This document shows, piece by piece, positions 13,292 to 44,299 of a stretch of DNA of 64,000 nt. Position numbers and translations under genes: made by a program. A model generated the notes under the pieces. It saw only the letters and a program-made list of their open reading frames with translations, had not been told where the DNA came from and made no database searches. Numbering within the stretch: position 1 is the stretch's first letter; every line of letters starts with the position of its first letter. Source of the DNA: Dictyostelium discoideum (lineage: Eukaryota); the NCBI GenBank assembly GCA_000004695.1, contig CM000155.2:320001-384000 (forward strand), read 5' to 3'.

Positions 13292-16043
13292 TTATTTGTT
13301 TGATGAGAGCAGCACCAACAGAATCAACACAACCAATTGTAATACCTGAAATTGCCCACCTGATAGTTTGGATGATTCACTATTTCCTTCAGCACCGATT
13401 GATGGTGATGGAGATATTGATATTTGAATTTCTTCAATTTTAACATCATAATTATATGATGTTGAGCCTAATTGGAGATATAATACTCCTGATGTTTCAT
13501 TAACAAATGAATTTGAATGGCATGATAAACAATCAGTACTATTTGTAATATCGATTTCATTTGAACTTAATATTGGATTACTATCATAAAATGTTTCATT
13601 TGGTGATAAACTACATTGTAAATTACATAAAAGAGAAACATTTTGTGATGAAAGTGCCAAGCTTGCATGAATATTACCTGATAAACCAACACCACCCACT
13701 GTTATTGAAATACCTTCTTTTTTATTTTTAATGGTTGGAACAACTGTAATCTTTGGTTTAAAATATGTTAAGAATGCATTTGGTCCTAAATTATCTCCAA
13801 TGAATGTTGAAACAAGTAGTGGACTCTCTATACTATCAGTTCTGACTATTAACATCTTTTCATCATGAGTAATAATCGTGGTATTTTTATTATTTGCTAA
13901 TACTTTAACTTTGAATTCATCTTCATTTGTTAATAAATTCTTACCAGAAACTGTGATTGTACCTCCACAACCAATTGTTTTATTATCTATATTTATTATA
14001 CCATTAATAACAGGTGGAAATGTTAAACTAAATAATGATTCCATATTAATTCCATCTACAGTAATATCAATTGGACCATAATCATATGAATTCAATGTTT
14101 TAATTGTTAATTGATTATCTTTTAATGCTAAAATTTCTGATGAAATATCATTACCATCGAAATAGACTTGAATTAATGGTATTGAGTTACCGAAATTATT
14201 TCCATGAAATGTAATATTAAATTGATCTTTAGAAAATTTACGATGCTCGATTATTGGAGGAGCATATGAGTATCCATCACTAACTGTCTCTGAGTTTAAT
14301 TTGAATATGAATTGTTTATTTAAACCAGTACCATATGGTGTTGAACATTTTGTTTTATAGTAACCAGATGTTAATGATTGTGATGATGGTATTGAACATT
14401 GGGTGGCTGATGATGAATTACCAATAGTAATACTTGGTGTTGATGATGAAATTAATGGACAATCCATATAATATATTTCAATATTTAATGTTCCATTAGA
14501 TACATTTGGTCTATTAATTACATTAATAATTAATGATGCAGAAATTGAAATTGTATTTGAGGAAATATTAGAACGAGTAAAACTAATATTAAAAGATCTA
14601 CATCTTAAATGAGGTAATTTAAATGTTAAACTCTTTTCATCAGATGTAACATTTAATTGGTCAATTTTTAAATAACTATTAGTTCCATCAGCATACAATT
14701 GAACGAATGATTCTTTATTTTTACCAAAATTTGTACCAATTAATGTAACGAAACCATTTGAATATGATCCACTTGATAATGTTGGAATATTATATGTAAA
14801 TGATACATTATTATTACTTGTTGAATTGCAACCTCCGAAATTAACGTTAACTGGTAAATCTCTACCACCATATTCATTTGGATCTAATTGACATTCTAAT
14901 TCGTTTGTTGTTGATTTAATTAATGTACATTGTTTATTTCCAATTGTAATTGAGGGTTTCAATGATGGATATAAAGTCGAAGATAATTTAACACCTTTAA
15001 TTGTTACAATACCTCCTAAATAATTTGATACTGATGATATTGATGTTATTATTGCTGGAAAACAATGAGTAAAATCCTTTTGAAGAGTAATTTTATTTAC
15101 CTTAATATTAATAGACATTGGACCAAGATCAGGTCTACTAAAGTTATTCACTTGAATTTGTGTATGATTTACTGAAATTATAAAATTTGTTTGATTAATA
15201 CCTCCCAGAAAAACCTCTACCAACTTTTTATCTGTAAAGAAGTTATCACCATTAATTGTTAATATCCCTAATGATTCGTCTGAAACAGTACTTGATATTT
15301 TAGGTGATTTGTATGAAAATGGAATAGGAAAATCACCTTCATCTTCAAAGTTAATTTCAAAATTTCCAGAACCTGGTGGAAATGATACAGTGATATTATT
15401 ACAGTCAAAAGAAGGATCAGAGAAATTACCTTTAACAACAAAAGAAACACCATTTCCATAGTTACTTTTAATAAAATTAGGACCTCCCCTGAATCTTAAA
15501 TAATTACCAGTAAATACTACATCACCTCCAGACGTTGCCGGTTTTTTATTAAACTTGATATCACTTACAAATTGAAATGTATATCCAGTACCAGAAAATT
15601 TATCTATATCTGTAAGATTAAATGAACAATTTTCAACTGGATTTGATAGTTCTTTTGCACATACCTTACTATGAGCACTACCCCATAATCTTGAGAATGG
15701 TTCATCTGAATGGAATGTACAAAGTCTCATACTACCAACAACGACACTACAATTGAAATAATTTGGTGCCATTTCATATCTGGGTGTTGTTTCGTTTTGA
15801 TACATAATTAAACGGGTAGGGTAAGAACGATCGCTTGGATAATTAAAATAATGTATTGTAAATGATTTTTCACTAATTGTTGCAACTAATTAAAATAAAT
15901 TAATTTCATAAACAAATTAATTATCAATAATTAAAAATATAATGATACTTACTATATGCCATTGGATCTTCCATTGAATATGGATATCCTAATTTAAAAA
16001 TTGAGAATAAAAAAAAAACTAGTAATATTATTTTATTTTCCAT
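13292..16043 (-). CDS. secreted IPT/TIG-repeat surface protein with GPI-type hydrophobic C-terminus; join(15953..16043,13292..15885)
   Basis: Exon 1 is [30 protein letters not shown] plus 1 nt, with donor A|GTAAGT. The 67-nt intron ends aattAG. Exon 2 of 2594 nt (phase 1) contains the 837-aa ORF. IPT-like units such as [24 protein letters not shown] and [10 protein letters not shown]...[17 protein letters not shown] are present. The C-terminus is ...[16 protein letters not shown]. Confidence 0.65.
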
Positions 16044-18917: not shown

Positions 18918-21906
<2,989 letters not shown>

Positions 21907-24608: not shown

Positions 24609-24768
24609 ATGAAATTTTTTATATTATTTTTTATTTTATATTTAGTTTCTGATACATTAGGACATTTAAATGAACCAGTTGTCAAGAGTAAATATTTAAT
24701 ATAAAAATAATTTAATCTTTTTTTTTATATTGTTTTTTCCGGTTTGGGTTTTTTTTTTTTTCCAAATT

Positions 24769-24833
<65 letters not shown>

Positions 24834-24955
24834 TTTGGTTATTGTTATTTACTATTTTTAATTTTTTTTAATGTGTTAATATTTAACTAGTTAAAAAAAT
24901 ACAAATATTCAATTTTGTAACCACTTGTCAATATAATTAAAGAAATTTGCAATTG

Positions 24956-25018
<63 letters not shown>

Positions 25019-27624
25019 AGTTTAAAATTAATATCTATAAATATTAATATTAATAAATATTAATCATTTAATAGATACATTCTCTATATTTTTGTATTTT
25101 TTTAAAAAGAAATCGATGGTTTCCAACACTAATTTTTTCTAATGATTTTATTTTAATTTCAGATTTTACATACACAAAACAATCATTGGAATATACATAT
25201 GATATTGATAGTACATATTATATAAAATGGATTTTTTCAAATTTGGAATATGAATTGGTTTTTGAATGTAAAAATAATAGCAAAGAAAGAACATGTACTG
25301 CTGGTATGTCCATTGATATTGCTAAAAATTTACATGGTCAAATAAAGGTATGCATACGTGGAATTGATAATAATGGTGTATTAGATTGCCATATTGCTTT
25401 TTATGAAGAATATTTTCCAAAGCCAATTATTGAAGGTGACTTTAAACCATCTACCAAAGGTGGTCCTACTATTATGAAAGGTTATTATTTGGCAATTGGT
25501 GCATACTACTATACCATTATCCCTGATACTAGATTGGGTATAATAGGTGATATTTTTAGTAACTCTATTGATGTCACAAATTTAATACTAGACTATAAAG
25601 GTGGTTGTGGCCCAGGAACTATTCAATGGTCAAATGATTTTAAATATAGTTTCAATCATTCAAATCCAATCATTGAAAATATTTTTATTGAAGGTTCATC
25701 TTTTATATCAAAAGGTTCTAATTTTTGTAATTCTTCTGATTCAATTCAAATTTATTTAGATGGTGTTCAAATTGATAAATCAAAAATAAAATCAATTGAT
25801 CATGAGCAATTTGAAATAATTTACACTCAACTATATTCAAAATCAATCAATGTTAAAATAGTATCTGGTGGACTTGAATCGAATATTTACAAATTGGATT
25901 TTAAACCGATACCTTTAAAAATTAATAGTGTTCCAAGATTAAAAGGTGGTTCAGTTACAATAATTGGTGAAAGACTATCTCCACAAGTATATAATTCAAC
26001 AATCATTGTTAAAATTGGTCAATATGATTGTAAAAATGTAATCTCATCAAAAAATGAAATTCTCTGTAATTTAGAATCGGTTCAAAATGTTGAAAAGGTT
26101 AAATTGGTAGATTTACAAGTTAATATCTCAATAAATGGTATTTTTAATGAAAATAATTTATTATTCTCATTCGATGTACCAATAATGTCAGATTTTATAC
26201 TTCCTCAAGGTGAAGTTAAATTAGTTGGTGATTGTTTTGGTTCTTCACAATTGACTCAAGTTAAAATTGACGATGTGTTACAATCCAATATAACAATTAA
26301 TATTAATGAAAAAGAAACAACACTTTCATTTAAGCCAATTAAACCAATTAAAAAATCAAAGTTATATATAATTGTCAATGGTACAAAATCAAATACTATT
26401 GAAATTGATTCATCATTTTTTGTAAAAAGTGTTCCATCTTCACCTTCAGTAAATGGTCAAATTGTAAACTTTACACTTTTCAATATAAATCCAAATAATG
26501 TAAATGCAACACCAATTATGATTTTTCAAAATAATAGTTCAATAAATGCAATTGATTATAAAAATTCAAATGAATACTCAACTCACACATACTCCTTTGA
26601 TATTCCAAAAAGTTGTGGGAGAAATGAGATTACAATTTTAATTGGAGACCAACTAACCCGTACTGAAATTTATTATGAATTACCAATAATATCAAGTTGT
26701 TCAATTGTTCCAAATCAAATGATTAAATGTCTTGGTAATTTTTTAAATTATCTAGATTTATTTAAAAATGGTAAAATTAAAATACAATTTTCAAATATGG
26801 TAATAATTGATAATATTCCAAACAATTCAATTATTTTTATGAGTGATTCATTTTCATTCCCAATGAAGCCAGAGTATAGTTCAAGTGATATATATCTTAT
26901 TGTTTGTGATGAAACTTCTCCATATTTTAAAGTTGATATAACTCCATCGCTTAAATTTGTGAGCCAATCTCTTGTTTTCAACTCCACTGGTGGTGAATTA
27001 TTAATTAATGGTGAAAATTTTAATGAAAATACAATTTACAATACATCTGTATATTGCTTTTCAAATAAACAAGTTTATAATTGTTCATTTATAAACAATA
27101 CATCTATCTCATGTGATATTGAATTGGTAGGTCCATTCGATCAACTTTGTAAAATCAAATTTAATGGTAAAGATGAGAATTATAACATTTCAATATCATA
27201 TTATCCTCCATTAGTTTTAAATTCAACAACGATTTCGAATTCATCGATTGGTGGAATTATTATAATTTTTGGTAATGAATTTTATAATCAAATTGATTCA
27301 ATTACAGTTGGTAAAAGTAAATGTTTAAACTCTACATTTATAAATTCAACATCGATTTCATGTTTTGTAGAACCTTCAAATTTTATTATTAATCAAACTG
27401 AACAACAACAACAATATGTTAACATTACAATTAATAACAAAAGTGGTGGTAATAATTTAATAATTTATTCTGTTAATTCAAATAGAATTGATGAAAATAA
27501 TAAATCAAATAAAAATACAATTGATGATAAACAAACCAACAATGAAATCAAAAATGAATCCATAAAAAGAAATATAAATTTAATTTTATTTATAATTATA
27601 TTCTCAACGATTTTAATCATTTAA
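24609..27624 (+). CDS. tgr-like IPT/TIG-repeat surface protein, array copy 1 (GPI-type tail); join(24609..24687,25163..27624), about 846 aa
   Basis: Exon 1 is [26 protein letters not shown] plus 1 nt, with donor A|GTAAAT. The 475-nt intron contains a 66-nt poly-T and ends ttttaatttcAG. Exon 2 (phase 1) runs ...[20 protein letters not shown]... through repeated IPT-like units ([12 protein letters not shown]...[19 protein letters not shown]; [53 protein letters not shown]; [44 protein letters not shown]). It ends in the hydrophobic tail [16 protein letters not shown] then TAA. Confidence 0.6.
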
Positions 27625-27868
27625 TTAAATTTATTACTTTCGTTATAAAAAAAAATTATACTCCCACCAAAAACAATGATTGAGTATATATAAAAAATGA
27701 TTATTTTTAGTGGTTTTGTGTTAAATAAAAAAAAAAAAATACAATAATAAATTTTGAACATGTTGTTTTTTTTTTTTTATATTTTTTTTTTTTTCTAATT
27801 ATTTTTAAAATAATTTTATTTTTTTTTTTTATTGGTTTTACTGTTTGGGTTATTTTTAATCTCAAATT

Positions 27869-27922
<54 letters not shown>

Positions 27923-28444
27923 TTTGATTATTGTTGTTATTTACTATTTTTAATTTTTTAATATTAAAGTCTCCAAATATTCAGCTATTGTTTATTTTTT
28001 ATATCATTGTTAATGTCATTAATAACTATAACTAGTTATTAATATAAATAAATATCAATCATTTTGTAGATATATTATCTATTTATGTATTTTATAAAAG
28101 ATATTGATAATTTCCAACACCAATTTTTAATTTTTTTATTTGGTTCATTAATATTTTTTTAAAAATTTTTCAATGTTTTAACCAGTTGTCAATGTAATTA
28201 AAGATATTTGCAATTGTTTATTAAAAAAAAAAAAAAAAATTGTTTGTTATTTTTTTAAAAAAAAAAAAAAAAGAGCTACTGTTCATTTTTTAATAAATTA
28301 ATTTTAAATTAATATCTATAACTATTAATATTAATAAATATTAATCATTTATTAGATACATTATCTCTATTTTTTGTATTTTTTTTAAAAAGAAATCAAT
28401 AGTTTCAACACTAATTTTTTCTTATGATTTTATTTTAATTTTAG

Positions 28445-31400
28445 ATTTTACATGCACAAAACAATCATTGGAATATACATATGATATTGATAGTACATAT
28501 TATATAAAATGGATTTTTTCAAATTTGAAATATGAATTGGTTTTTGAATGTAAAAATAATAGCAAAGAAAGAACATGTACTGCTGGTATGTCCATAGATA
28601 TTGCTAAAAATTTACATGGTCAAATAAAGATGTGCGGAACTGATAATAATGGTGTATTAGATTGCCATATGCGTGTATACGAAGAATATTTTCCAAAGCC
28701 AATTATTGAAGGTGACTTTAAACCATCTACCAAAGGTGGTCCTACTATTATGAAAGGTTATTATTTGGCAGTTGGAGTAATTCCTTACTTTACTATTATC
28801 CCTGGTACTATATTGGGAACAATAGGTGATATTTTTAGTAACTCTATAGATGTCACAAATTTAATACTAGACTATAAAGGTGTTGTGGCCCAAGAACTAT
28901 TCAATGGCCAAATGATTTTAAATATAGTTTCAATCATTCAAATCCAATCATTGAAAATATTTTTATTGAAGGTTCATCTTTTATATCAAAAGGTTCTAAT
29001 TTTTGTAATTCTTCTGATTCAATTCAAATTTATTTAGATGGTGTTCAAATTGATAAATCAAAAATAAAATCAATTGATCATGAGCAATTTGAAATAATTT
29101 ACACTCAACTATATTCAAAATCAATCAATGTTAAAATAGTATCTGGTGGACTTGAATCGAATATTTACAAATTGGATTTTAAACCTATACCTTTAAAAAT
29201 TAATAGTGTTCCAAGATTTAAAGGTGGTTCAATTACAATAATTGGTGAAAGACTATCTTCACAAGTAAATAATTCAACAATCATTGTTAAAATTGGTCAA
29301 TATCATTGTAAAAATGTAATCTCATCAAAAAATGAAATTCTCTGTAATTTAGAATCGGTTCCAAATGTTGAAAAGGTTAAATTGGTAGATTTGCAAGTTA
29401 ATATCTCAATAATGGTATTTTTAATGAAAATAATTTATTATTCTCATTCGATGTACCAATAATATCAGATTTTATACTTCCTCAAGGTGAAGTTAAATTA
29501 GTTGGTGATTGTTTTGGTTCTTCACAATTGACTCAAGTTAAAATTGACGATGTGTTACAATCCAATATAACAATTAATATTAATGAAAAAGAAACAACAC
29601 TTTCATTTAAGCCAATTAAACCAATTAAAAAGTCAAAGTTATATATAATTGTCAATGGTACAAAATCAAATACTATTGAAATTGATTCATCATTTTTTGT
29701 AAAAAGTGTTCCATCTTCACCTTCAGTAAATGGTCAAATAGTAAACTTTACACTTTTCAATATAAATCCAAATAATGTAAATGCAACACCAATTATGATT
29801 TTTCAAGATAATAGTTCAATAAAAGCAATTGATTATAAAAATTCGAATGAATACTCGACTCACACATACTCTTTTGATATTCCAAAAAGTTGTGGGAGAA
29901 ATGAAATTACAATTTTAATTGGAGACCAACTAACCCGTACTGAAATTTATTATGAATTACCAATAATATCAAGTTGTTCAATTGTTTCAAATCAAATGAT
30001 TAAATGTCTTGGTAATTTTACAAATTATTTAGATTTATTTAAAAATGGTAAAATTAAAATACAATTTTCAAATATGATAATAATTGATAATATTCCAAAC
30101 AATCCAATTATTTTTATGAGTGATTCATTTTCATTCCCAATAAAGCCAGAGTATAGTTCAAGTGATATATATCTTATTGTTTGTGATGAAACTTCTCTAG
30201 ATTTTAAAGTTGATATAACTCCATCGCTTAAATTTGTGAGCCAATCTCTTGTTTTCAACTCCACTGGTGGTGAATTATTAATTAATGGTGAAAATTTTAA
30301 TGAAAATACAATTTACAATACATCTGTATATTGCTTTTCAAATAAACAAGTTTATAATTGTTCATTTATAAACAGTACATCTATCTCATGTGATATTGAA
30401 TTGGTAGGTCCATTCGATCAACTTTGTAAAATCAAATTTAATGGAAAAGATGAGAAGTATAACATTTCAATATCATATTATCCTCCATTAGTTTTAAATT
30501 CAACAACGATTTCGAATTCATCAATTGGTGGAATTATTACAATTTTAATTGGAGACCAACTAACCCGTACTGAAATTTATTATGAATTACCAATAATATC
30601 AAGTTGTTCAATTGTTTCAAATCAAATGATTAAATGTCTTGGTAATTTTACAAATTATTTAGATTTATTTAAAAATGGTAAAATTAAAATACAATTTTCA
30701 AATATGGTAATAATTGATAATATTCCAAACAATCCAATTATTTTTATGAGTGATTCATTTTCATTCCCAATGAAACCAGAGTATAGTTCAAGTGATATAT
30801 ATCTTATTGTTTGTGATGAAACTTCTCCATATTTTAAAGTTGATATAACTCCATCGCTTAAATTTGTGAGCCAATCTCTTGTTTTCAACTCCACTGGTGG
30901 TGAATTATTAATTAATGGTGAAAATTTTAATGAAAATACAATTTACAATACATCTGTATATTGCTTTTCAAATAAACAAGTTTATAATTGTTCATTTATA
31001 AACAATACATCTATCTCATGTGATATTGAATTGGTAGGTCCATTCGATCAACTTTGTAAAATCAAATTTAATGGTAAAGATGAGAAGTATAACATTTCAA
31101 TATCATATTATCCTCCATTAGTTTTAAATTCAACAACGATTTCAAATTCATCAATTGGTGGAATTATTACAATTTTTGGTAATGAATTTTATAATCAAAT
31201 TGATTCAATTACAGTTGGTAAAAGTAAATGTTTAAACTCTACATTTATAAATTCAACATCGATTTCATGTTTTGTAGAACCTTCAAATTTTATTATTAAT
31301 CAAACTGAACAACAACAACAATATGTTAACATTAAAATTAATAGCAAAAGTGGTGGTAATAATTTAATAATTTATTCTGGTAATTCAAATAGAATTGATG

Positions 31401-31531
31401 AAAATAATAAATCAAATAAAAATACAATTGATGATAAACAAACCAACAATGAAATCAAAAATGAATCCATAAAAAGAAATATAAATTTAATTTTATTTAT
31501 AATTATATTCTCAACGATTTTAATCATTTAA
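28445..31531 (+). pseudogene. tgr-like array copy 2: lacks the signal exon, has two frameshifts and a 627-bp in-frame internal tandem duplication
   Basis: The coding region is split over ORFs 28468..29037, 29172..29462 and 29528..31531. A g is missing at ~28891 (ggtgttgtggcc versus ggtggttgtggcc in other copies). An a is missing at ~29410 (ctcaataatggt versus ctcaataaatggt). Segment ~29918..30544 ([14 protein letters not shown]...SIGGIITI) is repeated at ~30545..31180, and the copies differ at about 1% of sites. The upstream ATG exon seen in other units is absent: 27790-27840 joins the preceding 3' flank directly to the intron tail ttttactgtttgggtt. Confidence 0.75.
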
Positions 31532-32151
31532 TTTAATTTATTATTTTCGTTATAAAAAAAAAATTAAACTCCTACCAAAAAAAATTATTGAGTATATATA
31601 AAAAATGATTATTTTTAGTGGTTTTGTGTTAAATAAAAAAAAAAAATAATACAATAATAAATTTTGAACATGTTGTTTTTTTTTTTTATAATTTTTTTTT
31701 TTTTTAATTATTTTTAAAATAATTATTTTTTTGTTTTTACTATTTGATAAGTGTGTTATTGTGAATTTGATAATTAAAATAATATATAAAATCAAAAATA
31801 ATTAAAAATATAACCACTTCTCATAAACTACTTTTTATGGTAGTGGGTGAAAAAAAAAAAAATAATAATTTTCATTTCAATTAAAAAAACAAGCCCAAAA
31901 AAGTTTAATACAATTAATAATATTCTAATATGATGAAAGAAACATCAAGTGGTGGGTGTGGTAAACTTGGCACACAGTGTTAAAAAAAAACAATATGAGT
32001 AATATTGAAAATCATACAACAAAACTGATAATATTAAAATAAATTAGTGGGATGTGTGTGTTGAAAAACATTATTTAATAAATTATGTGATTGTTTATTT
32101 TTAATTTAATATTGAAGCATTACCTTATTGTTTTTATTATTATTTTATTAT

Positions 32152-32196
<45 letters not shown>

Positions 32197-32395
32197 TATC
32201 AATATTTTTTTTTTTTTTAATTATTATTAATATTTATGTTTTTTTTTTAATTATTAATATTTTTGTTTTTATATATTATTTTAATTTTTATTTTTTTTTA
32301 TTTTTTTTATTTCAAATCATTAACAGTAATAATAAATTATTTAACATCCTCAAAAAAACAATTTCATAATTAAAATAATAAATAGTAAATCAAAA

Positions 32396-32559
32396 ATGAA
32401 ATTTATTATATTATTTTTTATTTTATATTTAGTTTCTGATACATTAGGATCTTTAAATGAACCAGTTGTCAAGAGTAAATATTTTAAATATAAATATAAT
32501 TTAATTTTTTTTTTTTATTGTTTTTATTGTTTGGGTTATTTTTATTTCTCAAATTTAAT

Positions 32560-32621
<62 letters not shown>

Positions 32622-35592
32622 TTTGAATTATATTTGTTATTTACTATTTTTAATTTTTTAATATTAAAGTCTCCAAATATTCAGCTATTGTTTATTTTTT
32701 ATATCATTGTTAATGTCATTAATAACTATAACTAGTTATTAATATAAATAAAAATCAATCATTTTGTAGATATATTATCTATTTATGTATTTTATAAGAT
32801 ATTGATAATTTCCAACACTAATTTTTAATTTTTTGTTTGGTTCATTATTATTTTTTTAAAAATTGTTCAATGTTTTAACCACTTTTCAATGTAATTAAAG
32901 ATATTTGCAATTGTTTATTAAAAAAAAAAAAAAAAATTGTTTGTTATTTTATTAAAAAAAAAAGAGCTACTGTTCATTTTTTAATAAATTAATTTTAAAT
33001 CAATATCTATAACAATTGATATTAATAAATAATAATCATTTAATAGATACATTATCTATATTTTTTGTAATTTTTTTAAAAAGAAATCAATAGTTTCCAA
33101 CACTAATTTTTTCTTATGATTTTATTTTAATTTCAGATTTTACATGCACAAAACAATCATTGGAATATACATATGATATTGATAGTACATATTATACAAA
33201 ATGGATTTTTTCAGATTTGGAATATGAATTGGTTTTTGAATGTAAAAATAATAGCAAAGAAAGAACATGTACTGCTGGTATGTCCATTGATATTGCTAAA
33301 AATTTACATGGTCAAATAAAGATGTGCGGAACTGATAATAATAGTGTATTAGATTGCCATTCGAATTACGAAGAATATTATCCAAAGCCAATTATTGAAG
33401 GTGACTTTAAACCATCTACCAAAGGTGGTCCTACTATTATGAAAGGTTATTATTTGGCAGTTGGTGCATACTACTATAACATTATCCCTTATACTAGATT
33501 GGGTATTATAGGTGATGTTCATAGTAACTCTATAGATGTCACAAATTTAATACTAGACTATAAAGGTGGTTGTGGCCCAAGAACTATTCAATGGCCAAAT
33601 GATTTTAAATATAGTTTCAATCATTCAAATCCAATCATTGAAAATATTTTTATTGAAGGTTCATCTTTTATATCAAAAGGTTCTAATTTTTGTAATTCTT
33701 CTGATTCAATTCAAATTTATTTAGATGGTGTTCAAATTGATAAATCAAAAATAAAATCAATTGATCATGAGCAGTTTGAAATAATTTACACTCAACTATA
33801 TTCAAAATCAATCAATGTTAAAATAGTATCTGGTGGACTTGAATCGAATATTTACAAATTGGATTTTAAACCTATACCTTTAAAAATTAATAGTGTTCCA
33901 AGATTAAAAGGTGGTTCAATTACAATAATTGGTGAAAGACTATCTTCACAAGTAAATAATTCAACAATCATTGTTAAAATTGGTCAATATGATTGTAAAA
34001 ATGTAATCTCATCAAAAAATGAAATTCTCTGTAATTTAGAATCGGTTCCAAATGTTGAAAAAGTTAAATTGGTAGATTTACAAGTTAATATCTCAATAAA
34101 TGGTATTTTTAATGAAAATAATTTATTATTCTCATTCGATATACCAATAATATCAGATTTTATACTTCCACAAGGTGAAGTTAAATTAGTTGGTGATTGT
34201 TTTGGTTCTTCACAATTGACTCAAGTTAAAATTGACGATGTATTACAATCCAATATAACAATTAATATTAATGAAAAAGAAACAACACTTTCATTTAAGC
34301 CAATTAAACCAATTAAAAAATCAAAGTTATATATAATTGTCAATGGTACAAAATCAAATACTATTGAAATTGATTCATCATTTTTTGTAAAAAGTGTTCC
34401 ATCTTCACCTTCAGTAAATGGTCAAATTGTAAACTTTACTCTTTTCAATATAAATCCAAATAATGTTAATGCAACACCAATTATGATTTTTCAAGATAAT
34501 AGTTCAATAAAAGCAATTGATTATAAAAATTCAAATGAATACTCAACTCACACATACTCTTTTGATATTCCAAAAAGTTGTGGGAGAAATGAAATTACAA
34601 TTTTAATTGGAGACCAACTAACCCGTACTGAAATTTATTATGAATTACCAATAATATCAAGTTGTTCAATTGTTTCAAATCAAATGATTAAATGTCTTGG
34701 TAATTTTTTAAATTATTTAGATTTATTTAAAAATGGTAAAATTAAAATACAATTTTCAAATATGGTAATAATTGATAATATTCCAAACAATCCAATTATT
34801 TTTATGAGTGATTCATTTTCATTCCCAATGAAGCCAGAGTATAGTTCAAGTGATATATATCTTATTGTTTGTGATGAAACTTCTCTAGATTTTAAAGTTG
34901 ATATAACTCCATCGCTTAAATTTGTGAGCCAATCTCTTGTTTTCAACTCCACTGGTGGTGAATTATTAATTAATGGTGAAAACTTAAATGAAAATACAAT
35001 TTACAATACATCTGTATATTGCTTTTCAAATAAACAAGTTTATAATTGTTCATTTATAAACAATACATCTATATCATGTGATATTGAATTGTTAGGTCCA
35101 TTCGATCAACTTTGTAAAATCAAATTTAATAGTAAAGATGAGAATAATAACATTTCAATATCATATTATCCTCCATTAGTTTTAAATTCAACAACGATTT
35201 CAAAATCATCAACTGGTGGAATTATTACTATTTTTGGTAATGAATTTTATAATCAAATTGATTCAATTACAGTTGGTAAAAGTAAATGTTTAAACTCTAC
35301 ATTTATAAATTCAACATCGATTTCATGTTTTGTAGAACCTTCAAATTTTAATATTAACCAAACTGAACAACAAAAAAAACAATATGTTAACATTATAATT
35401 AATGGTAAAAGTGGTGGTAATAATTTAATAATTTATTCTGGTAATTCAAATAGAATTGATGAAAATAACAAATCAAATAAAAATACAATTGACGAAAAAC
35501 AAACCAATAATGAAATCAAAAATGAATCTATTAAAAGAAATATAAATTTTATATTATTTATAATTATATTCTCAACAATTTTAATCATATAA
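32396..35592 (+). CDS. tgr-like IPT/TIG-repeat surface protein, array copy 3 (GPI-type tail); join(32396..32474,33137..35592)
   Basis: Same architecture as copy 1: exon 1 [26 protein letters not shown] plus 1 nt, donor GTAAAT, a 662-nt intron with a ~75-nt poly-T, acceptor tttcAG at 33135-33136, and the 810-aa ORF 33160..35592 in phase. Confidence 0.6.
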
Positions 35593-36397
35593 TTTAATTT
35601 ATTAATTTCATTGTAAAAAAAAAAAAAAATAAAACTCCAACCAAAAACAATTATTGGGTATATATAAAAAATGATTATTTTTGGTGGGTTAAAAATAAAA
35701 TATAATACAATAATAAATTTTGAACTTATTTTTTTTTTTTTATTTTTTGATAATTTTTTTTTTTTTAATTATTTTTAAAATAATTATTTTTTTGTTTTTA
35801 CTATTTGATAAGTGTGATTGTGAATATTAATAATTTAAATAAAATATAAAATTAAAAATGATTAAAAATATAACCACTTATCATAAAATACTTTTTTTGG
35901 CAGTGGTTGAAAAAAAAAAAAAAAATAATAATATTCATTTCAATTAAAAAAAACACATCCAAAAAAGTTTAATAAAAAATAAATAGTATTCTAAAATGAT
36001 GAAAGAAACACCAATTGGTGGGTGTGGTAAACTTGACACAGTGTTTAATAAACATGATGAGTAATATTGAAAATCATACAACAAAACTGATAAAAATAAA
36101 TTAGTGTGGGAGTGTGTGTTGAAAAACATTTTTCAATAAATTATTTGATTGTTTTTTTTTAATTTACTATTGAAGCATCGTTACCTTAATTTTATTATTA
36201 TTATTATTATTATTTTTTTTTTTCTTTAATATTTTTTTTAATTATTATTATAATTTTTATTTTTTTTAATTATTAATATTTTTGTTTTTATATTTTTTTA
36301 ATTATTAATATTTTTTATTTTTTTATTTCAAATCATAAATTATTTAACATCCTCAAAAAAACAATTTTAATATTAAAATAATAATAGTAAATCAACA

Positions 36398-39105
36398 ATG
36401 AAAATTATTATATTTTTTTTTATTTTATATTTATTTTCCGATACATAAGGATCTTTAGTTGTCAAGAGTAAATATATAAATTAAAATAATTTTAATTTTT
36501 TTTAGTTTTCATTATATCTATATGTACAAAATATATATGTGTCTTAGATAATCATTGAATAGATACATTATTTATATTTTGTATTTTTTTAAAAAGAAAT
36601 CAATGGTTTCCAACTCTAATTTTTTCTAATATTTACATTTTAATTTCAGATTTTACATGCACAAAACAATCATTGGAATATACATATGATATCGATAGTA
36701 CATATTATACAAAATGGATTTTTTCAGATTTGGAATATGAATTGGTTTTTGAATGTAAAAATAATAGCAAAGAAAGAACATGTACTGCTGGTATGTCCAT
36801 TGATATTGCTAAAATTTTACATGGTCAAATAAAGAAGTGCGGAACTGATAATAATAGTGTATTAGATTGCCATTTGAAATACGAAGAATATTATCCAAAG
36901 CCAATTATTGAAGGTGACTTTAAACCATCTACCAAAGGTGGTCCTACTATTATGAAAGGTTATTATTTGGCAGTTGGTGCATACTACTATAACATTATCC
37001 CTTATACTAGATTGGGTATTATAGGTGATGTTCATTGTAACTCTATAGATGTCACAAATTTAATACTAGACTATAAAGGTGGTTGTGGCCCAAGAACTAT
37101 TCAATGGCCAAATGATTTTAAATATAGTTTCAATCATTCAAATCCAATCATTGAAAATATTTTTATTGAAGGTTCATCTTTTATATCAAAAGGTTCTAAT
37201 TTTTGTAATTCTTCTGATTCAATTCAAATTTATTTAGATGGTGTTCAAATTGATAAATCAAAAATAAAATCAATTGATCATGAGCAGTTTGAAATAATTT
37301 ACACTCAACTATATTCAAAATCAATCAATGTTAAAATAGTATCTGGTGGACTTGAATCGAATATTTACAAATTGGATTTTAAACCTATACCTTTAAAAAT
37401 TAATAGTGTTCCAAGATTAAAAGGTGGTTCAATTACAATAATTGGTGAAAGACTATCTTCACAAGTAAATAATTCAACAATCATTGTTAAAATTGGTCAA
37501 TATCATTGTAAAAAGGTAATCTCATCAAAAAATGAAATTCTATGTAATTTAGAATCGGTTCCAAATGTTGAAAAAGTTAAATTGGTAGATTTACAAGTTA
37601 ATATCTCAATAAATGGTATTTTTAATGAAAATAATTTATTATTCTCATTCGATATACCAATAATATCAGATTTTATACTTCCACAAGGTGAAGTTAAATT
37701 AGTTGGTGATTGTTTTGGTTCTTCACAATTAACTCAAGTTAAAATTGACGATGTGTTACAATCTAATATAACAATTAATATTAATGAAAAAGAAACAACA
37801 CTTTCATTTAAGCCAATTAAACCAATTAAAAAATCAAAGTTATATATAATTGTCAATGGTACAAAATCAAATACTATTGAAATTGATTCATCATTTTTTG
37901 TAAAAAGTGTTCCATCTTCACCTTCAGTAAATGGTCAAATTGTAAACTTTACTCTTTTCAATATAAATCCAAATAATGTTAATGAAACACCAATTATGAT
38001 TTTTCAAGATAATAGTTCAATAAATGCAATTGATTATAAAAATTCAAATGAAAACTCGACTCACACATACTCTTTTGATATTCCAAAAAGTTGTGGGAGA
38101 AATGAAATTACAATTTTAATTGGAGACCAACTAACCCGTACTGAAATTTATTATGAATTACCAATAATATCAAGTTGTTCAATTGTTTCAAATCAAATGA
38201 TTAAATGTCTTGGTAATTTTTTAAATTATCTAGATTTATTTAAAAATGGTAAAATTAAAATACAATTTTCAAATATGGTAATAATTGATAATATTCCAAA
38301 CAATCCAAATATTTTTATGAGTGATTCATTTTCATTCCCAATGAAGCCAGAGTATAGTTCAAGTGATATATATCTTATTGTTTGTGATGAAACTTCTCCA
38401 GATTTTAAAGTTGATATAACTCCATCGCTTAAATTTGTGAGCCAATCTCTTGTTTTCAACTCCACTGGTGGTGAATTATTAATTAATGGTGAAAATTTTA
38501 ATGAAAATACAATTTACAATACATCTGTATATTGCTTTTCAAATAAACAAGTTTATAATTGTTCATTTATAAACAATACATCTATCTCATGTGATATTGA
38601 ATTGGTAGGTCCATTCGATCAACTTTGTAAAATCAAATTTAATGGTAAAGATGAGAATTATAACATTTCAATATCATATTATCCTCCATTAGTTTTAAAT
38701 TCAACAACGATTTCGAATTCATCGATTGGTGGAATTATTATAATTTTTGGTAATGAATTTTATAATCAAATTGATTCAATTACAGTTGGTAAAAGTAAAT
38801 GTTTAAACTCTACATTTATAAATTCAACATCGATTTCATGTTTTGTAGAACCTTCAAATTTTATTATTAATCAAACTGAACAACAACAACAACAATATGT
38901 TAACATTACAATTAATAACAAAAGTGGTGGTAATAATTTAATAATTTATTCTGGTAATTCAAATAGAATTGATGAAAATAATAAATCAAATAAAAATACA
39001 ATTGATGATAAACAAACCAACAATGAAATCAAAAATGAATCCATAAAAAGAAATATAAATTTAATTTTATTTATAATTATATTCTCAACGATTTTAATCA
39101 TTTAA
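36398..39105 (+). CDS. tgr-like array copy 4: exon 2 (36650..39105) is intact but the signal-peptide exon at 36398 carries an in-frame TAA and a 9-nt deletion; possibly a pseudogene
   Basis: Exon 2 (810-aa ORF 36673..39105) is full length. The homologous exon 1 reads atgaaaattattatattttttttt..ttttccgatacaTAAggatctttagttgtcaagag, against ..gatacaTTAggatctttaaatgaaccagttgtcaagag in copies 3 and 5. The intron is reduced to ~170 nt, compared with ~660 nt in the other units. Confidence 0.5.
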
Positions 39106-39943
39106 TTAAATTTATTACTTTCGTTATAAAAAAAATTATACTCCCACCAAAAACAATGATTGAATATATATAAAAAATGATTATTTTTAGTGGTTTTGTG
39201 TTAAATAAAAAAAAAAAAAATACAATAATAAATTTTGAACATGTTGTTTTTTTTTTTTTATATTTTTTTTTTTTTCTAATTATTTTTATAATAATTATTT
39301 TTTTGTTTTTGCTATTTGATAAGTGTGTTATTGTGAATTTTGATAATTAAAATAATATATAAAATCAAAAATAATTAAAAATATAACCACTTCTCATAAA
39401 CTACTTTTTATGGTAGTGGGTGAAAAAAAAAAAAATAATAATTTTCATTTCAATTAAAAAAAACAAGCCTAAAAAATTTTAATACAATTAATAGTTTTCT
39501 AATATGATGAAAGAAACATCAAGTGGTGGGTGTGGTAAACTTGGCACACAGTGTTAAAAAAAAACAATATGAGTAATTTTGAAAATCATACAACAAAACT
39601 GATAATATTAAAATAAATTAGTGGGATGTGTGTGTTGAAAAACATTATTTAATAAATTATGTGATTTGTTTATTTTAATTTAATATTGAAGCATTACCTT
39701 ATTGTTTTTATTATTATTTTTTTTTTTTTTTTTTTTTTTTTTTATTATTATCAATATTTTTTTTTTTTAATTATTATTAATATTTATGTTTTTTTAATTA
39801 TTAATATTTTTGTTTTTATATATTATTTTAATTATTATTTTTTTATTATTTTTTTTATTTCAAATCATTTACAGTAATAATAAATTATTTAACATCCTCA
39901 AAAAAACAATTTCATTATTAAAATAATAAATAGTAAACCAAAA

Positions 39944-40105
39944 ATGAAATATATTATATTATTTTTTATTTTATATTTAGTTTCTGATACATTAGGATCT
40001 TTAAATGAACCAGTTGTCAAGAGTAAATATTTTAAATATAAAAATAATTTTATTTTTTTTTTTTTATTGTTTTTACTGTTTGGGTTATTTTTATATCTCA
40101 AATTT

Positions 40106-40151
<46 letters not shown>

Positions 40152-43100
40152 TTTGATTATTGTTGTTATTTACTATTTTTAATTTTTTAATATTAAAGTC
40201 TCCAAATATTCAGCTATTGTTTATTTTTTTATATCATTGTTAATGTCATTAATAACTATAACTAGTTATTAATATAAATAAATATCAATCATTTTGTAGA
40301 TATATTATCTATTTATGTATTTTATAAAAGATATTGATAATTTCCAACACCAATTTTTAATTTTTTTATTTGGTTCATTAATATTTTTTTAAAAAATTTT
40401 CAATGTTTTAACCACTTGTCAATGTAATTAAAGATATTTGCAATTGTTTATTAAAAAAAAAAAAAAAAAAAAAATTGTTTGTTATTTTTTTAAAAAAAAA
40501 AAAAAAGAGCTACTGTTCATTTTTTAATAAATTAATTTTAAATTAATATCTATAACTATTAATATTAATAAATATTAATCATTTATTAGATACATTATCT
40601 CTATTTTTTGTATTTTTTTAAAAAGAAATCAATGGTTTCCAACACTAATTTTTTCTTATGATTTTATTTTAATTTTAGATTTTACATGCACAAAACAATC
40701 ATTGGAATATACATATGATATTGATAGTACATATTATTCAAAATGGATTTTTTCAAATTTGAAATATGAATTGGTTTTTGAATGTAAAAATAATAGCAAA
40801 GAAAGAACATGTACTGCTGGTATGTCCATTGATATTGCTAAAAATTTACATGGTCAAATAAAGATGTGCAGAACTGATAATAATGGTGTATTAGATTGCC
40901 ATTCGAATTACGAAGAATATTTTCCAAAGCCAATTATTGAAGGTGACTTTAAACCATCTACCAAAGGTGGTCCTACTATTATGAAAGGTTATTATTTGGC
41001 AGTTGGAGTAATTCCTTACTTTACTATTATCCCTGATACTATATTGGGAACAATAGGTGATATTTTTAGTAACTCTATAGATGTCACAAATTTAATACTA
41101 GACTATAAAGGTGGTTGTGGCCCAAGAACTATTCAATGGCCAAATGATTTTAAATATAGTTTCAATCATTCAAATCCAATCATTGAAAATATTTTGATAG
41201 AAGGTTCATCTTTTATATCAAAAGGTTCTAATTTTTGTAATTCTTCTGATTCAATTCAAATTTATTTAGATGGTGTTCAAATTGATAAATCAAAAATAAA
41301 ATCAATTGATCATGAACAATTTGAAATAATTTACACTCAACTATATTCAAAATCAATAAATGTTAAAATAGTATCTGGTGGACTTGAATCGAATATTTAC
41401 AAATTGGATCTTAAACCTATACCTTTAAAAATTAATAGTGTTCCAAGATTAAAAGGTGGTTCAATTACAATAATTGGTGAAAGACTATCTTCACAAGTAA
41501 ATAATTCAACAATCATTGTTAAAATTGGTCAATATGATTGTAAAAATGTAATCTCATCAAAAAATGAAATTCTCTGTAATTTAGAATCGGTTCCAAATGT
41601 TGAAAAGGTTAAATTGGTAGATTTACAAGTTAATATCTCAATAAATGGTATTTTTAATGAAAATAATTTATTATTCTCATTCGATATACCAATAATATCA
41701 GATTTTATACTTCCTCAAGGTGAAGTTAAATTAGTTGGTGATTGTTTTGGTTCTTCACAATTGACTCAAGTTAAAATTGACGATGTGTTACAATCCAATA
41801 TAACAATTAATATTAATGAAAAAGAAACAACACTTTCATTTAAGCCAATTAAACCAATTAAAAAATCAAAGTTATATGTAATTGTCAATGGTACAAAATC
41901 AAATACTATTGAAATTGATTCATCATTTTTTGTAAAAAGTGTTCCATCTTCACCTTCAGTAAATGGTCAAATTGTAAACTTTACACTTTTCAATATAAAT
42001 CCAAATAATGTTAATGCAACACCAATTATGATTTTTCAAGATAATAGTTCAATAAAAGCAATTGATTATAAAAATTCAAATGAATACTCAACTCACACAT
42101 ACTCTTTTGATATTCCAAAAAGTTGTGGGAGAAATGAAATTACAATTTTAATTGGAGACCAACTAACCCGTACTGAAATTTATTATGAATTACCAATAAT
42201 ATCAAGTTGTTCAATTGTTTCAAATCAAATGATTAAATGTCTTGGTAATTTTATAAATTATCTAGATTTATTTAAAAATGGTAAAATTAAAATACAATTT
42301 TCAAATATGGTAATAATTGATAATGTTCCAAACAATCCAATTATTTTTATGAGTGATTCATTTTCATTCCCAATGAAGCCAGAGTATAGTTCAAGTGATA
42401 TATATCTTATTGTTTGTAATGAAATTTCTCCAGATTTTAAAGTTGATATAACTCCATCGCTTAAATTTGTGAGCCAATCTCTTGTTTTCAACTCCACTGG
42501 TGGTGAATTATTAATTAATGGTGAAAATTTTAATGAAAATACAATTTACAATACATCTGTATATTGCTTTTCAAATAAACAAGTTTATAATTGTTCATTT
42601 ATAAACTATACATCTATCTCATGTGATATTGAATTGGTAGGTCCATTCGATCAACTTTGTAAAATCAAATTTAATGGAAAAGATGAGGAGTATAACATTT
42701 CAATATCATATTATCCTCCATTAGTTTTAAATTCAACAACGATTTCGAATTCATCAATTGGTGGAATTATTACAATTTTTGGTAATGAATTTTATAATCA
42801 AATTGATTCAATTACAGTTGGTAAAAGTAAATGTTTAAACTCTACATTTATTAACTCAACATCAGTTTCATGTTTTTTAGAACCTTCCAAAATTATTATT
42901 GATCAAAGCAAACAACAACAGCAACAACAACAACAACAACAACAATATGTTAACATCACGATTAATGGTAAAAGTGGTGGTAATAATTTAATTATTTATT
43001 TTGATAATTCAATTATTGAAGTTAAAAACCAATCAAGCCAAAGTGATAAAAACAACAACAACAACAACAACAACAATGGTAAAAATATAAATAATGGTGA

Positions 43101-43863
43101 TAGTAAAACTGATGGTAGAAGTTTTTATGAAAAAAATAAAAAATGGATAACAGTATTAATAATAATTGGAAGTTTGGCATTACTTTTATTTATCTTTTTT
43201 GGTATAATTTATTGTAATAGAAAAAACGGTACTGTTATCTATTGGAAATATATTATGTGTCGCGGAATCAAAGAAAAAAAATATAAATTTAAAAATAGAA
43301 AAGAGATAAAACAAATACAAGAATTAAGACATACATTGGATAATGCAGAGACAATTTTTGCTGACTTTGAATTAGATAATATAATAACTTATTCAGAGTA
43401 TCAACTTACACCCGAAAATCGTCTACGAAAAGAACAACAAGAATTAGCTCGAGAAAATTATATTGAAACTTACCCAGATTATTATTTACATATAAATAAA
43501 ACTAAAAATTTACCAAATAATGATTCATTACCTCCAAATCAAGTTGAAAATTTACCAAATAATAATTCATTACCTCCAAATAAAATTGAAAATTCATTAC
43601 CTCCGAATCAAACTGAAAATTTACCAAATAATAATTCATTACCTCCAAATCAAACTGAAACATTACAAGAAGATTCTTTACCTCCAAATCAAACTGAAAC
43701 ATTACCAGAAGTTTCATTACCTCCAAATCATATTGAAACATTACCAGAAGTTTCATTACCTCCAAATCAAATTGAAACATTACCAGAAGTTTCATTACCT
43801 CCAAATCATATTGAAAAACTAACAGACAATTCATCATCATCTCAAGACCCAAGCTCTTCATAA
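39944..43863 (+). CDS. tgr-like IPT/TIG-repeat protein, array copy 5, with a transmembrane helix and a repetitive cytoplasmic tail; join(39944..40022,40679..43863)
   Basis: Exon 1 is [26 protein letters not shown] plus 1 nt, the intron is 656 nt, and the 1053-aa ORF begins at 40702. It is identical in layout to the other copies up to ~42850, then diverges: Q12 tract, N-rich linker, TM helix [23 protein letters not shown], basic stretch [17 protein letters not shown], and 8 tandem 11-12-aa units SLPPNQ(T/I)E(N/T)LP(N/E)(N/V). Confidence 0.65.
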
Positions 43864-44299
43864 TTTTTTAAAAAATAAATAAATAAATAAATAAATAAAG
43901 AAATAAAGAAATAAATAAATAAATAAATTTCTTTTAAAAATAATATTAAAAAATGGAAAATTGTATTGAAAAAAAAGAAAACTATCAATTTAAAAGATAT
44001 TCCTGTTTTAAATTTTTATTTTTTTTTTTTTTTTTTTATTCTTATAAAATTTATATTTCTATTGATTAAAATCTTCCCTTACCACCTTGTTCCATACCAT
44101 TCATGTTATACATTCATACCACCTTTGATTCATAGCATGATATCATTCATACAATTTTGATTGAAACCACCCATACCTTGATTGATCATAATTCCTCCAT
44201 TGAAACGTTAATTCATCATTTGTTGTGGTCTCATTGTTGGAATGGTTGAACCTGCTGAAGTAATTGGATGTGCTGGTAGTTGTATGAATGTGTGTATGT

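What the first reader, a model, noticed from the sequence alone, without database searches (positions are those of the whole stretch)
36398..36650. Copy 4 keeps a full-length main exon but its signal-peptide exon has a premature TAA, a 9-nt deletion and a shortened intron
In copy 4 the homologous exon 1 has ...gat aca TAA gga tct tta gtt gtc aag ag: a T-to-A change makes a stop, and aatgaacca is deleted. Copies 3 and 5 read ...gat aca tta gga tct tta aat gaa cca gtt gtc aag ag|gtaaat. The downstream intron is ~170 nt instead of ~660 nt. Exon 2 (810 codons) is intact. This is either a very recent pseudogenisation or a copy expressed from an alternative start without a signal peptide.
Basis: seen in the sequence. 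Interest (0 to 1): 0.5.

Follow-up and report, generated by a model that had tools for sequence, protein, structure and literature searches.

The report
Nonsense-mutated tgrA pseudogene in Dictyostelium array
Copy 4 is one member of the Dictyostelium discoideum tgrA cell-surface gene array on chromosome 6, silenced by a single stop codon in its signal-peptide exon while recombination with its neighbours keeps the rest of the gene looking intact; this is an ordinary event in a family already known to be full of pseudogenes.

Summary
Copy 4 has ATG at 36398 and an in-frame TAA at 36446-48 (codon 17, TTA in the paralogues). It lacks 9 nt after 36457, has a 182-nt GT..AG intron (36468-36649) and an open exon 2 (36650-39105).

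The window is the D. discoideum tgrA cluster. Copies 1, 3 and 5 translate exactly to AX4 TgrA1, TgrA2 and TgrA3. Copy 4 has no current AX4 protein, only contorted models that bypass the TAA.

Best reading (about 0.8): an unprocessed pseudogene whose only disabling lesion is the nonsense codon.
- **9-nt gap:** two loci of a wild isolate share it, and there the codon is TTA.
- **Short intron:** family introns range from 70 to about 730 nt.
- **No rescue route:** six out-of-frame ATGs precede the first in-frame one, and that product has no signal peptide.
- **"Very recent" is not required:** the 5' module carries 8.6% private changes against 0.6% in exon 2. Exon 2 is a mosaic of tgrA2 (5' half, 99.1%) and tgrA1 (3' half, 98.9%). 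That points to gene conversion or unequal crossing-over.
- **Same TAA exon in AX2:** it occurs twice in the independent AX2 assembly.

tgr pseudogenes are well documented (26 in AX4). Interest is low.

The parts
35598..36397 (+). Spacer/promoter region upstream of copy 4. It is the most diverged 5' module of the array.
   Evidence: It is 88-89% identical to the homologous spacers of copies 1, 3 and 5, which are 93-98% identical to each other. It has 59 private substitutions in 705 aligned sites.
35996..36060 (+). Spacer ORF (MMKETPIGGCGKLDTVFNKHDE) used as a substitute first exon by automated gene models. Probably not a real exon.
   Evidence: 35996-36060 joined to 36597-39105 reproduces P0001 exactly. 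In copies 1, 3 and 5 the homologous stretch ends in TAA after 17 codons, before the donor. The AX2 models are ab initio, with no RNA evidence.
36398..36467 (+). Exon 1 (signal-peptide exon) of copy 4. ATG is at 36398-36400, and the 9-nt gap junction lies after 36457.
   Evidence: If TAA were TTA it would encode [23 protein letters not shown], with a hydrophobic core as strong as TgrA2's (KD 3.23 against 3.29).
36446..36448 (+). Premature stop TAA (codon 17). It is TTA (Leu) in copies 1, 3 and 5 and in the wild-isolate loci L004 and L005. This is the only disabling lesion found.
   Evidence: It is identical in four places in the three overlapping loci fetched from the AX2 assembly, which correspond to two array members.
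36468..36649 (+). Intron 1, 182 nt, GTAAAT...TTTCAG, phase 1. It keeps the conserved first ~10 nt and last ~110 nt. It lacks the poly-T and poly-A tracts and the internal duplication seen in the introns of copies 3 and 5.
   Evidence: ATGs inside the intron (36523, 36537, 36603) all run into stops, and the exon-2 frame is closed upstream by TGA at 36556-58.
36650..39105 (+). Exon 2, open to its stop at 39103-39105. It encodes TgrO1-like Ig and IPT/TIG domains and a hydrophobic C-terminus. It is a mosaic: the 5' half resembles tgrA2 and the 3' half resembles tgrA1.
   Evidence: Pfam Ig_TgrO1 1.8e-31 and TIG 1.1e-10. 99.1% identical to copy 3 over 36650-37950 and 98.9% identical to copy 1 over 37951-39105.
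36793..36795 (+). First in-frame ATG after the TAA (M41 of the 810-aa ORF). This is the hypothetical alternative start.
   Evidence: Six out-of-frame ATGs precede it in the spliced RNA. The product would start [11 protein letters not shown], with maximum hydropathy 0.84, so no signal peptide.

Best explanation
Copy 4 is an unprocessed (duplicated) pseudogene of the tgrA subfamily of the Dictyostelium discoideum Tgr ('Tiger') cell-surface protein family. It lies between tgrA2 (copy 3) and tgrA3 (copy 5) on AX4 chromosome 6.

Mechanism, with what is shown and what is inferred:
- **The lesion (shown).** A single T>A change turned Leu codon 17 (TTA) of the signal-peptide exon into TAA.
- **The consequence (inferred).** Translation from the only usable ATG would end after 16 residues. 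The Ig/TIG ectodomain in exon 2 would not be made or targeted to the secretory pathway.
- **Everything else needed for expression is intact (shown).** This includes the ATG, the GT-AG splice sites, the phase and exon 2.
- **The other two 'defects' are lineage variants, not decay.** The 9-nt gap and the 182-nt intron both have parallels in relatives (comparison shown; neutrality inferred).
- **Why exon 2 is still open (inferred from the mosaic pattern).** Non-allelic recombination within the array has recently overwritten it: tgrA2-like sequence in the 5' half, tgrA1-like in the 3' half. The older, diverged 5' module carrying the TAA was left untouched.
- **Reversibility.** One back-mutation, or a short conversion tract from a neighbour, would restore a complete gene.
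For: **Family and position**
- Pfam finds Ig_TgrO1 plus TIG domains.
- Copies 1, 3 and 5 spliced from the window equal XP_635221 (846 aa), XP_635224 (844 aa) and XP_635226 (1087 aa) exactly.
- The supplement of bioRxiv 10.1101/2025.08.01.668227 lists tgrA1 (DDB_G0291622), tgrA2 (DDB_G0291666) and tgrA3 (DDB_G0291668) as the AX4 tgrA genes of this cluster. I assigned copies 1 and 5 to tgrA1 and tgrA3 by matching exonic lengths 2541 and 3267 in Table S3 of bioRxiv 10.1101/2025.10.22.684067. Copy 3 is tgrA2 by elimination.

**The lesion**
- TAA is in frame at codon 17.
- The same exon occurs twice in the independent AX2 assembly.

**No rescue route**
- Exon 1 has no GT before the TAA.
- Intron ATGs all hit stops, and the exon-2 frame is closed at 36556-58.
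- Six out-of-frame ATGs precede M41.
- M41 and the model N-termini lack a signal-peptide-like core at the N-terminus.
- The substitute upstream 'exon' is closed by a stop in the paralogues.

**Annotation history**
- No current AX4 protein exists for copy 4. There is only a UniParc/MetaClust-only 862-aa model that reads part of exon 1 in the wrong frame.

**The 9-nt gap is older than the stop**
- L004 and L005 exon 1 share the gap and have TTA.

**Intron length is unconstrained**
- Family introns range from 70 to about 730 nt.

**Recombination**
- Site patterns switch from '34' to '14/145' near codon 450.
- Private substitutions are 80/931 in the 5' module against 14/2309 in exon 2. The ratio is 14, against 0.7-2.7 in the other copies (Fisher p = 5e-14).
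- AX2 carries a copy-4/copy-1 hybrid gene and an extra 11.4-kb unit, so crossovers inside these exons do happen.

**Context**
- AX4 has 38 tgr genes and 26 tgr pseudogenes (PMC12745789).
- Birth-and-death evolution and 'resurrection' by recombination are proposed for the family (bioRxiv 10.1101/2025.10.22.684067).
Against: - No transcript or protein data could be examined, so non-expression is inferred, not shown.
- The ratio of private non-synonymous to synonymous changes in exon 2 is 10:5. It does not differ from the intact neighbours (32:16, Fisher p = 1) or from neutrality (p = 0.34). There is therefore no independent signal of relaxed constraint.
- The diverged 5' module could reflect descent from a different tgrA lineage rather than long in-situ decay.
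- The two wild-isolate loci that share the 9-nt gap each carry a frameshift in exon 2 in that assembly. They do not prove that the gap is compatible with function.
- I could not read dictyBase to confirm a pseudogene flag for this locus.
Confidence: 0.8

Rival explanations
1. Very recent pseudogenisation without recombination. The TAA arose so recently that exon 2 has simply not had time to decay.
For: - Exon 2 has only 15 private substitutions.
- 5.6% of possible substitutions create stops, so the chance of no stop in 15 substitutions is 0.42.
- Apart from the TAA, no other lesion is present.
Against: - The 5' module, including exon 1, has about 14 times more private change per site than exon 2.
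- Exon 1 alone has 5 private changes in 70 nt (Poisson p = 8e-5 at the exon-2 rate).
- Exon 2 switches its nearest relative from copy 3 to copy 1.

This explanation is compatible with the pseudogene verdict. It differs only on history.
Confidence: 0.1
2. Copy 4 is expressed as a signal-peptide-less (cytosolic) Tgr protein. This could be from the internal ATG at 36793, or from the upstream spacer ORF spliced to 36597 as in models P0001 and P0031.
For: - The exon-2 frame is open from 36559, and GT/AG sites exist for the 35996-36060 + 36597 model.
- The intron-derived stretch [14 protein letters not shown] is moderately hydrophobic (KD 2.0).
Against: - The models are ab initio or old automated predictions without RNA support.
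- The upstream ORF is closed by TAA in copies 1, 3 and 5.
- Six out-of-frame ATGs precede M41.
- A Cys-rich Ig/TIG ectodomain with many N-x-S/T sites and a C-terminal hydrophobic anchor would not be expected to be matured without entering the ER. This point rests on general knowledge of secretory proteins.
- The 862-aa model is not in the current AX4 protein set.
Confidence: 0.04
3. The TAA is an assembly or sequencing artefact, or the gene is rescued by stop-codon readthrough or reinitiation.
For: No positive evidence was found. Paralogous cross-mapping is a known problem for tgr genes with short reads (bioRxiv 10.1101/2025.10.22.684067).
Against: - The identical exon 1 is found in an independent long-read assembly, in two array members.
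- TAA followed by G is not a known leaky context (my own knowledge).
- Curators did not keep a protein model for this locus (inference).
Confidence: 0.03

Closest known systems
tgrA2 (DDB_G0291666, XP_635224) and tgrA1 (DDB_G0291622, XP_635221), the intact neighbours in the same array
   Same: - The same two-exon architecture: a signal-peptide exon, a phase-1 intron and one large exon.
- The same Ig_TgrO1 and TIG domains.
- The same short hydrophobic C-terminus.
- Exon 2 is 97% (tgrA2) and 95% (tgrA1) identical at protein level. Locally it is 99% identical to one or the other at DNA level.
   Different: - TAA at codon 17.
- A 3-residue gap after the predicted cleavage site.
- A 182-nt intron instead of 475-662 nt.
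- A much more diverged spacer and promoter.
Annotated tgr pseudogenes of AX4 (26 loci, for example tgrC_ps1 and the tgrB pseudogene discussed in bioRxiv 10.1101/2025.10.22.684067 and PMC12745789)
   Same: - A member of a clustered, rapidly duplicating recognition-gene family undergoing birth-and-death evolution.
- Inactivated by an internal stop while sitting next to intact paralogues.
- Subject to recombination with its neighbours.
   Different: Many described tgr pseudogenes are truncated or carry several stops or frameshifts. Copy 4 has one lesion, confined to the first exon, and a full-length open body. Ab initio pipelines therefore score it as an intact gene: DD_AX2_00011983 and DD_AX2_00011986 are in the 'curated' tgrA set.
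Pseudogenes kept 'fresh' by gene conversion in multigene recognition families, such as MHC, KIR and olfactory-receptor arrays and chicken pseudo-V segments (general knowledge, not tested here)
   Same: A mosaic sequence relationship to functional neighbours, and an open body despite a disabling lesion elsewhere.
   Different: No evidence here that copy 4 donates sequence to functional genes. The direction of transfer is unknown.

Membership tests
Tgr (Tiger) family, tgrA subfamily | IPT/TIG or E-set Ig-like repeats in the ectodomain | tested here: met
   Pfam Ig_TgrO1 (1.8e-31, two stretches) and TIG (1.1e-10, two stretches) in the exon-2 ORF.
Tgr (Tiger) family, tgrA subfamily | N-terminal signal sequence that is translated together with the ectodomain | tested here: not met
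   The signal-peptide exon is present, but TAA at codon 17 closes it. No alternative in-frame start with a hydrophobic N-terminus exists.
Tgr (Tiger) family, tgrA subfamily | C-terminal transmembrane or hydrophobic anchor segment | tested here: met
   The ORF ends ...[19 protein letters not shown], as in TgrA1 and TgrA2. Only TgrA3 (copy 5) has a transmembrane segment plus a cytoplasmic tail.
Tgr (Tiger) family, tgrA subfamily | Clusters with AX4 tgrA1-A3 by sequence, and lies in the chromosome 6 tgrA array | tested here: met
   97%, 95% and 93% identical to TgrA2, TgrA1 and TgrA3. It sits between the loci that translate exactly to TgrA2 and TgrA3. Its AX2 equivalents fall inside the tgrA1-A3 clade of the published tree.
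Unprocessed (duplicated) pseudogene | Disabling lesion relative to intact paralogues, reproducible in independent sequence | tested here: met
   TTA>TAA at 36446-48. The same is seen in the AX2 long-read assembly, in two array members.
Unprocessed (duplicated) pseudogene | No alternative reading, splice or start that restores the full product | tested here: met
   no GT before the TAA, intron ATGs are closed, the upstream frame is closed at 36556-58, and the substitute exon is not conserved as coding.
Unprocessed (duplicated) pseudogene | Relaxed selective constraint on the coding body | tested here: inconclusive
   Private changes are 10 non-synonymous to 5 synonymous, indistinguishable from the intact neighbours and from neutrality. 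Recent conversion would erase any signal.
Unprocessed (duplicated) pseudogene | No functional transcript or protein | not testable with these tools
   Exact-product look-ups for the 810-aa and 770-aa ORFs found nothing. No RNA-seq data are accessible.
Unprocessed (duplicated) pseudogene | Flagged as a pseudogene in the reference annotation (dictyBase) | tested here: inconclusive
   This is indirect. The current AX4 protein set lacks it, and an 862-aa model survives only in UniParc/MetaClust. The AX4 tgrA genes listed by Holland et al. for this cluster are A1-A3 only. The dictyBase record itself was not readable.

The most novel reading that the evidence does not exclude
Copy 4 is not just dead DNA. 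It may be a 'standby' array member that takes part in concerted evolution, exchanging exon-2 segments with tgrA1 and tgrA2. The AX2 copy-4/copy-1 hybrid shows that such crossovers occur. One short conversion tract or a back-mutation could resurrect it, so strains would differ in their functional tgrA repertoire. This is a concrete, datable example of the 'death and resurrection' dynamics proposed for tgr genes.
Probability: 0.2. Interest if true: 0.4.

Novelty: already known. Interest (0 to 1): 0.15.

Why it matters
The main value is practical.

- **Gene counts.** This locus looks like a full-length gene to ab initio predictors. It is counted twice among the 'curated' AX2 tgrA genes, although it cannot encode a signal peptide. 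Repertoire counts and selection analyses for the tgrA/H/I/O expansions should check first exons.
- **A worked example of array dynamics.** It is a clean small example of how array recombination keeps a pseudogene body open while its 5' end drifts.
- **Reference copy number.** The AX4 reference window and the AX2 long-read assembly differ by an 11.4-kb unit of the array.

None of this changes what is known about Tgr biology.

Tried and rejected
- **Transcript evidence through exact-product look-ups.** Queries with the copy-4 ORFs (810 aa from TTG, 770 aa from ATG) found nothing on record, so there is no transcript evidence either way.
- **Literature search for tgrA names or DDB_G identifiers in main texts.** This returned only irrelevant hits. 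The PNAS version of Holland et al. has no held supplements, but the bioRxiv version does.
- **Orthology of copy 4's 5' module with the wild-isolate loci that share the 9-nt gap.** Upstream identity is 83.5%, no higher than to its own paralogues (89%). Concerted evolution within strains masks orthology. The shared gap is therefore suggestive of common descent, not proof.
- **dN/dS-type test on private substitutions.** Uninformative.
- **The P0001 and P0031 N-termini as a real alternative first exon.** Rejected. They are ab initio or old automated models. The homologous spacer is closed by a stop in the paralogues. P0031 reads 36451-36468 of the true exon 1 in the wrong frame.
- **Sequencing error.** Rejected on the independent AX2 assembly.
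Full report
**What the window is.** The window is about 20% G+C. It carries five head-to-tail paralogues on the + strand with large second exons at 25163-27624, about 28445-31531, 33137-35592, 36650-39105 and 40679-43863. Pfam finds TgrO1-like Ig and IPT/TIG domains in them. The protein search returns Dictyostelium discoideum AX4 proteins from a 3,602,379-bp contig. Splicing exon 1 to exon 2 in copies 1, 3 and 5 reproduces XP_635221 (846 aa), XP_635224 (844 aa) and XP_635226 (1087 aa) exactly.

The supplement of Holland et al. (bioRxiv 10.1101/2025.08.01.668227) lists the AX4 genes of this group as tgrA1 (DDB_G0291622), tgrA2 (DDB_G0291666) and tgrA3 (DDB_G0291668). Exonic lengths of 2541 and 3267 nt in Table S3 of Polo et al. 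(bioRxiv 10.1101/2025.10.22.684067) match copies 1 and 5. The finding therefore concerns the array member between tgrA2 and tgrA3.

**The observation.** It is correct.
- Exon 1 is 36398-36467.
- TAA at 36446-48 is codon 17 in frame with the ATG. Copies 1, 3 and 5 have TTA there.
- AATGAACCA is missing after 36457.
- The intron is 36468-36649: 182 nt, GTAAAT...TTTCAG, phase 1.
- Exon 2 is open to 39105.
- The paralogue introns are 475, 662 and 656 nt.

Minor corrections: the donor is AAG A|GTAAAT, and the intron is 182 nt rather than about 170.

**Not an error.** An independent long-read assembly, GCA_054883475.1, shares TgrA1-A3 proteins identical to AX4. It is most likely the AX2-214 genome of Holland et al. 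(PMC12745789). It contains the identical TAA-bearing exon 1, in two array members.

**How annotators treated it.** The current AX4 protein set returned no protein for copy 4. Three models exist, and all avoid the TAA rather than explain it.
- **P0031 (862 aa).** Held only in UniParc/MetaClust. It starts at an upstream spacer ATG and reads 36451-36468, part of the true exon 1, in the wrong frame.
- **P0001 (857 aa) and P0030 (856 aa).** AX2 models that join 35996-36060 to 36597 and read the last 53 nt of the intron as coding. They come from GeneMark-EP+ with protein hints and no RNA evidence.

In copies 1, 3 and 5 the stretch homologous to the substitute exon ends in TAA after 17 codons, so it is spacer, not a conserved exon.

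**Can anything rescue the gene?**
- Exon 1 has no GT before the TAA, so no alternative donor can skip it.
- Only the ATG frame matches the phase of exon 2.
- ATGs inside the intron all hit stops, and the exon-2 frame is closed upstream by TGA at 36556-58.
- In the spliced RNA the first ORF is 16 codons. Six out-of-frame ATGs then precede the first in-frame ATG (36793, M41).
- That product starts [11 protein letters not shown], with maximum hydropathy 0.84 against 3.29 for TgrA2's signal peptide.

A Cys-rich ectodomain with many N-x-S/T sites and a hydrophobic C-terminal anchor is not expected to work without ER entry. This last step is inference from general knowledge.

**Are the 9-nt gap and the short intron part of the decay?** No.
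- **The gap.** Two loci of a wild D. discoideum assembly (GCA_054859385.1; P0017 in L004 and P0011 in L005) have exon 1 reading ...GGT ACA TTA GGA TCT TTA|GTT GTC AAG A. This is the same gap with Leu intact. Other tgrA proteins have 5 to 8 residues in this linker, which lies just after the predicted cleavage site (TLG|S). The gap is therefore older than the stop, or independent of it, and lies in a length-variable segment. One caveat: both wild loci carry a frameshift in exon 2 in that assembly, so they do not prove the gap is functional.
- **The intron.** First-intron lengths in the family are 70 nt (D. citrinum P0012), 182 nt (copy 4), 430 nt (P0017), 475 nt (tgrA1), 514 nt (tgrA4), 656-662 nt (tgrA3, tgrA2) and about 731 nt (P0006). 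Copy 4 keeps the conserved ends and both splice signals.

Apart from the TAA, exon 1 would still encode a good signal peptide, [18 protein letters not shown] (KD 3.23).

**History: recent death or refreshed body?**

| Region | Private substitutions in copy 4 | Rate |
|---|---|---|
| Spacer + exon 1 + intron | 80 of 931 sites | 8.6% |
| Exon 2 | 14 of 2309 sites | 0.6% |

- The ratio of the two rates is 14 for copy 4. It is 2.7, 0.7 and 0.9 for copies 1, 3 and 5 (Fisher p = 5e-14).
- Exon 1 alone has 5 private changes in 70 nt (Poisson p = 8e-5).
- Private density falls from about 8% to below 1% across the first ~250 nt of exon 2.
- Within exon 2, informative sites group copy 4 with copy 3 up to about codon 440, and with copy 1 thereafter. 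Identity is 99.1% to tgrA2 in the 5' half and 98.9% to tgrA1 in the 3' half.

The simplest reading is that exon 2 was recently overwritten or exchanged by non-allelic recombination, while the diverged 5' module with the TAA was not. An open exon 2 is in any case unremarkable. Only 5.6% of possible substitutions make stops, so the chance of no stop in 15 substitutions is 0.42. The 10:5 ratio of non-synonymous to synonymous private changes does not separate copy 4 from its intact neighbours.

**Direct evidence that such recombination happens.** The AX2 assembly has eight array members: 846, 963, 844, 856, 963, 844, 857 and 1087 aa. The 856-aa gene (P0030) is copy-4-like at its 5' end, including the TAA exon, and copy-1-like at its 3' end. 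The extra 11.4-kb unit is nearly identical to its twin, with about 17 differences. This is the product expected from an unequal crossover between copy 4 and copy 1. Alternatively, the 5-copy reference is a collapsed assembly.

[quoted passage not shown] The A/H/I/O, B/E/J and C/D/K groups are rapidly expanding, and TgrA function is unknown (PMC12745789). Polo et al. describe clusters of gene and pseudogene pairs, low expression of most members, difficulty in fixing gene models, strain differences in which loci are pseudogenes, and 'death' and 'resurrection' by recombination. Copy 4 fits this picture exactly. Its only particular feature is that a single first-exon lesion leaves a body that predictors score as intact: DD_AX2_00011983 and DD_AX2_00011986 are in the 'curated' tgrA set.

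**Verdict.** Interest is low.

Noticed in passing
window 25000-44000 compared with L001-L003 (GCA_054883475.1, JBTAPE010000005.1, about 268.8-306.9 kb): The AX2-like long-read assembly has eight tgrA array members where the window has five. The extra 11.4-kb unit (a copy-4/copy-1 hybrid, a copy-2 type gene and a tgrA2 duplicate) is nearly identical to its twin. Either an unequal crossover occurred in that lineage, or the reference assembly represented by the window is collapsed.
   Followed up: partly
window 27625-31531 (copy 2): Copy 2 has no exon 1 or promoter. About 170 nt after the tgrA1 stop the sequence runs straight into intron-like DNA. Its exon 2 is broken (ORFs 28468-29037 and 29528-31531) and contains an in-frame 630-nt tandem duplication (29906 and 30536). 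AX2 models bridge it as a 963-aa protein.
   Followed up: partly
window 13292-15805 (- strand): Another Tgr-family ORF (837 aa; Ig_TgrO1 1.5e-26, TIG 2.2e-20) lies on the opposite strand about 9 kb upstream of the array. Its subfamily was not determined.
   Followed up: no
window 43000-43863 (copy 5, tgrA3): Only tgrA3 has a transmembrane segment followed by a long cytoplasmic tail with repeated LPPNQ(I/T)E(T/N)LP units. Copies 1, 3 and 4 end in a short hydrophobic tail with no cytoplasmic part. That could be a GPI-type signal or a truncated form.
   Followed up: no
window 32475-33136 and 40023-40678 (introns of copies 3 and 5); 24688-25162 (copy 1): These introns hold very long homopolymer tracts: poly-T of about 60-90 nt and poly-A of about 20-60 nt. 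In copies 3 and 5 there is also an internal duplicate of the 3' intron segment, so '...tttccaacactaattttt' occurs twice. Most of the intron length differences among copies lie here.
   Followed up: partly
L004 10001-13626 and L005 10001-12727 (GCA_054859385.1): The two wild-isolate loci with the 9-nt-gap exon 1 have 100% identical upstream regions but lie on different contigs. Each has one frameshift in exon 2, at different places. These could be real pseudogenes or homopolymer errors of the long-read assembly.
   Followed up: partly
window 18918-21906 (+ strand): Two adjacent ORFs (703 aa and 274 aa) look like one interrupted gene, with a long poly-Q tract and a kinase-like C-terminal half. 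This was seen only in the ORF list.
   Followed up: no
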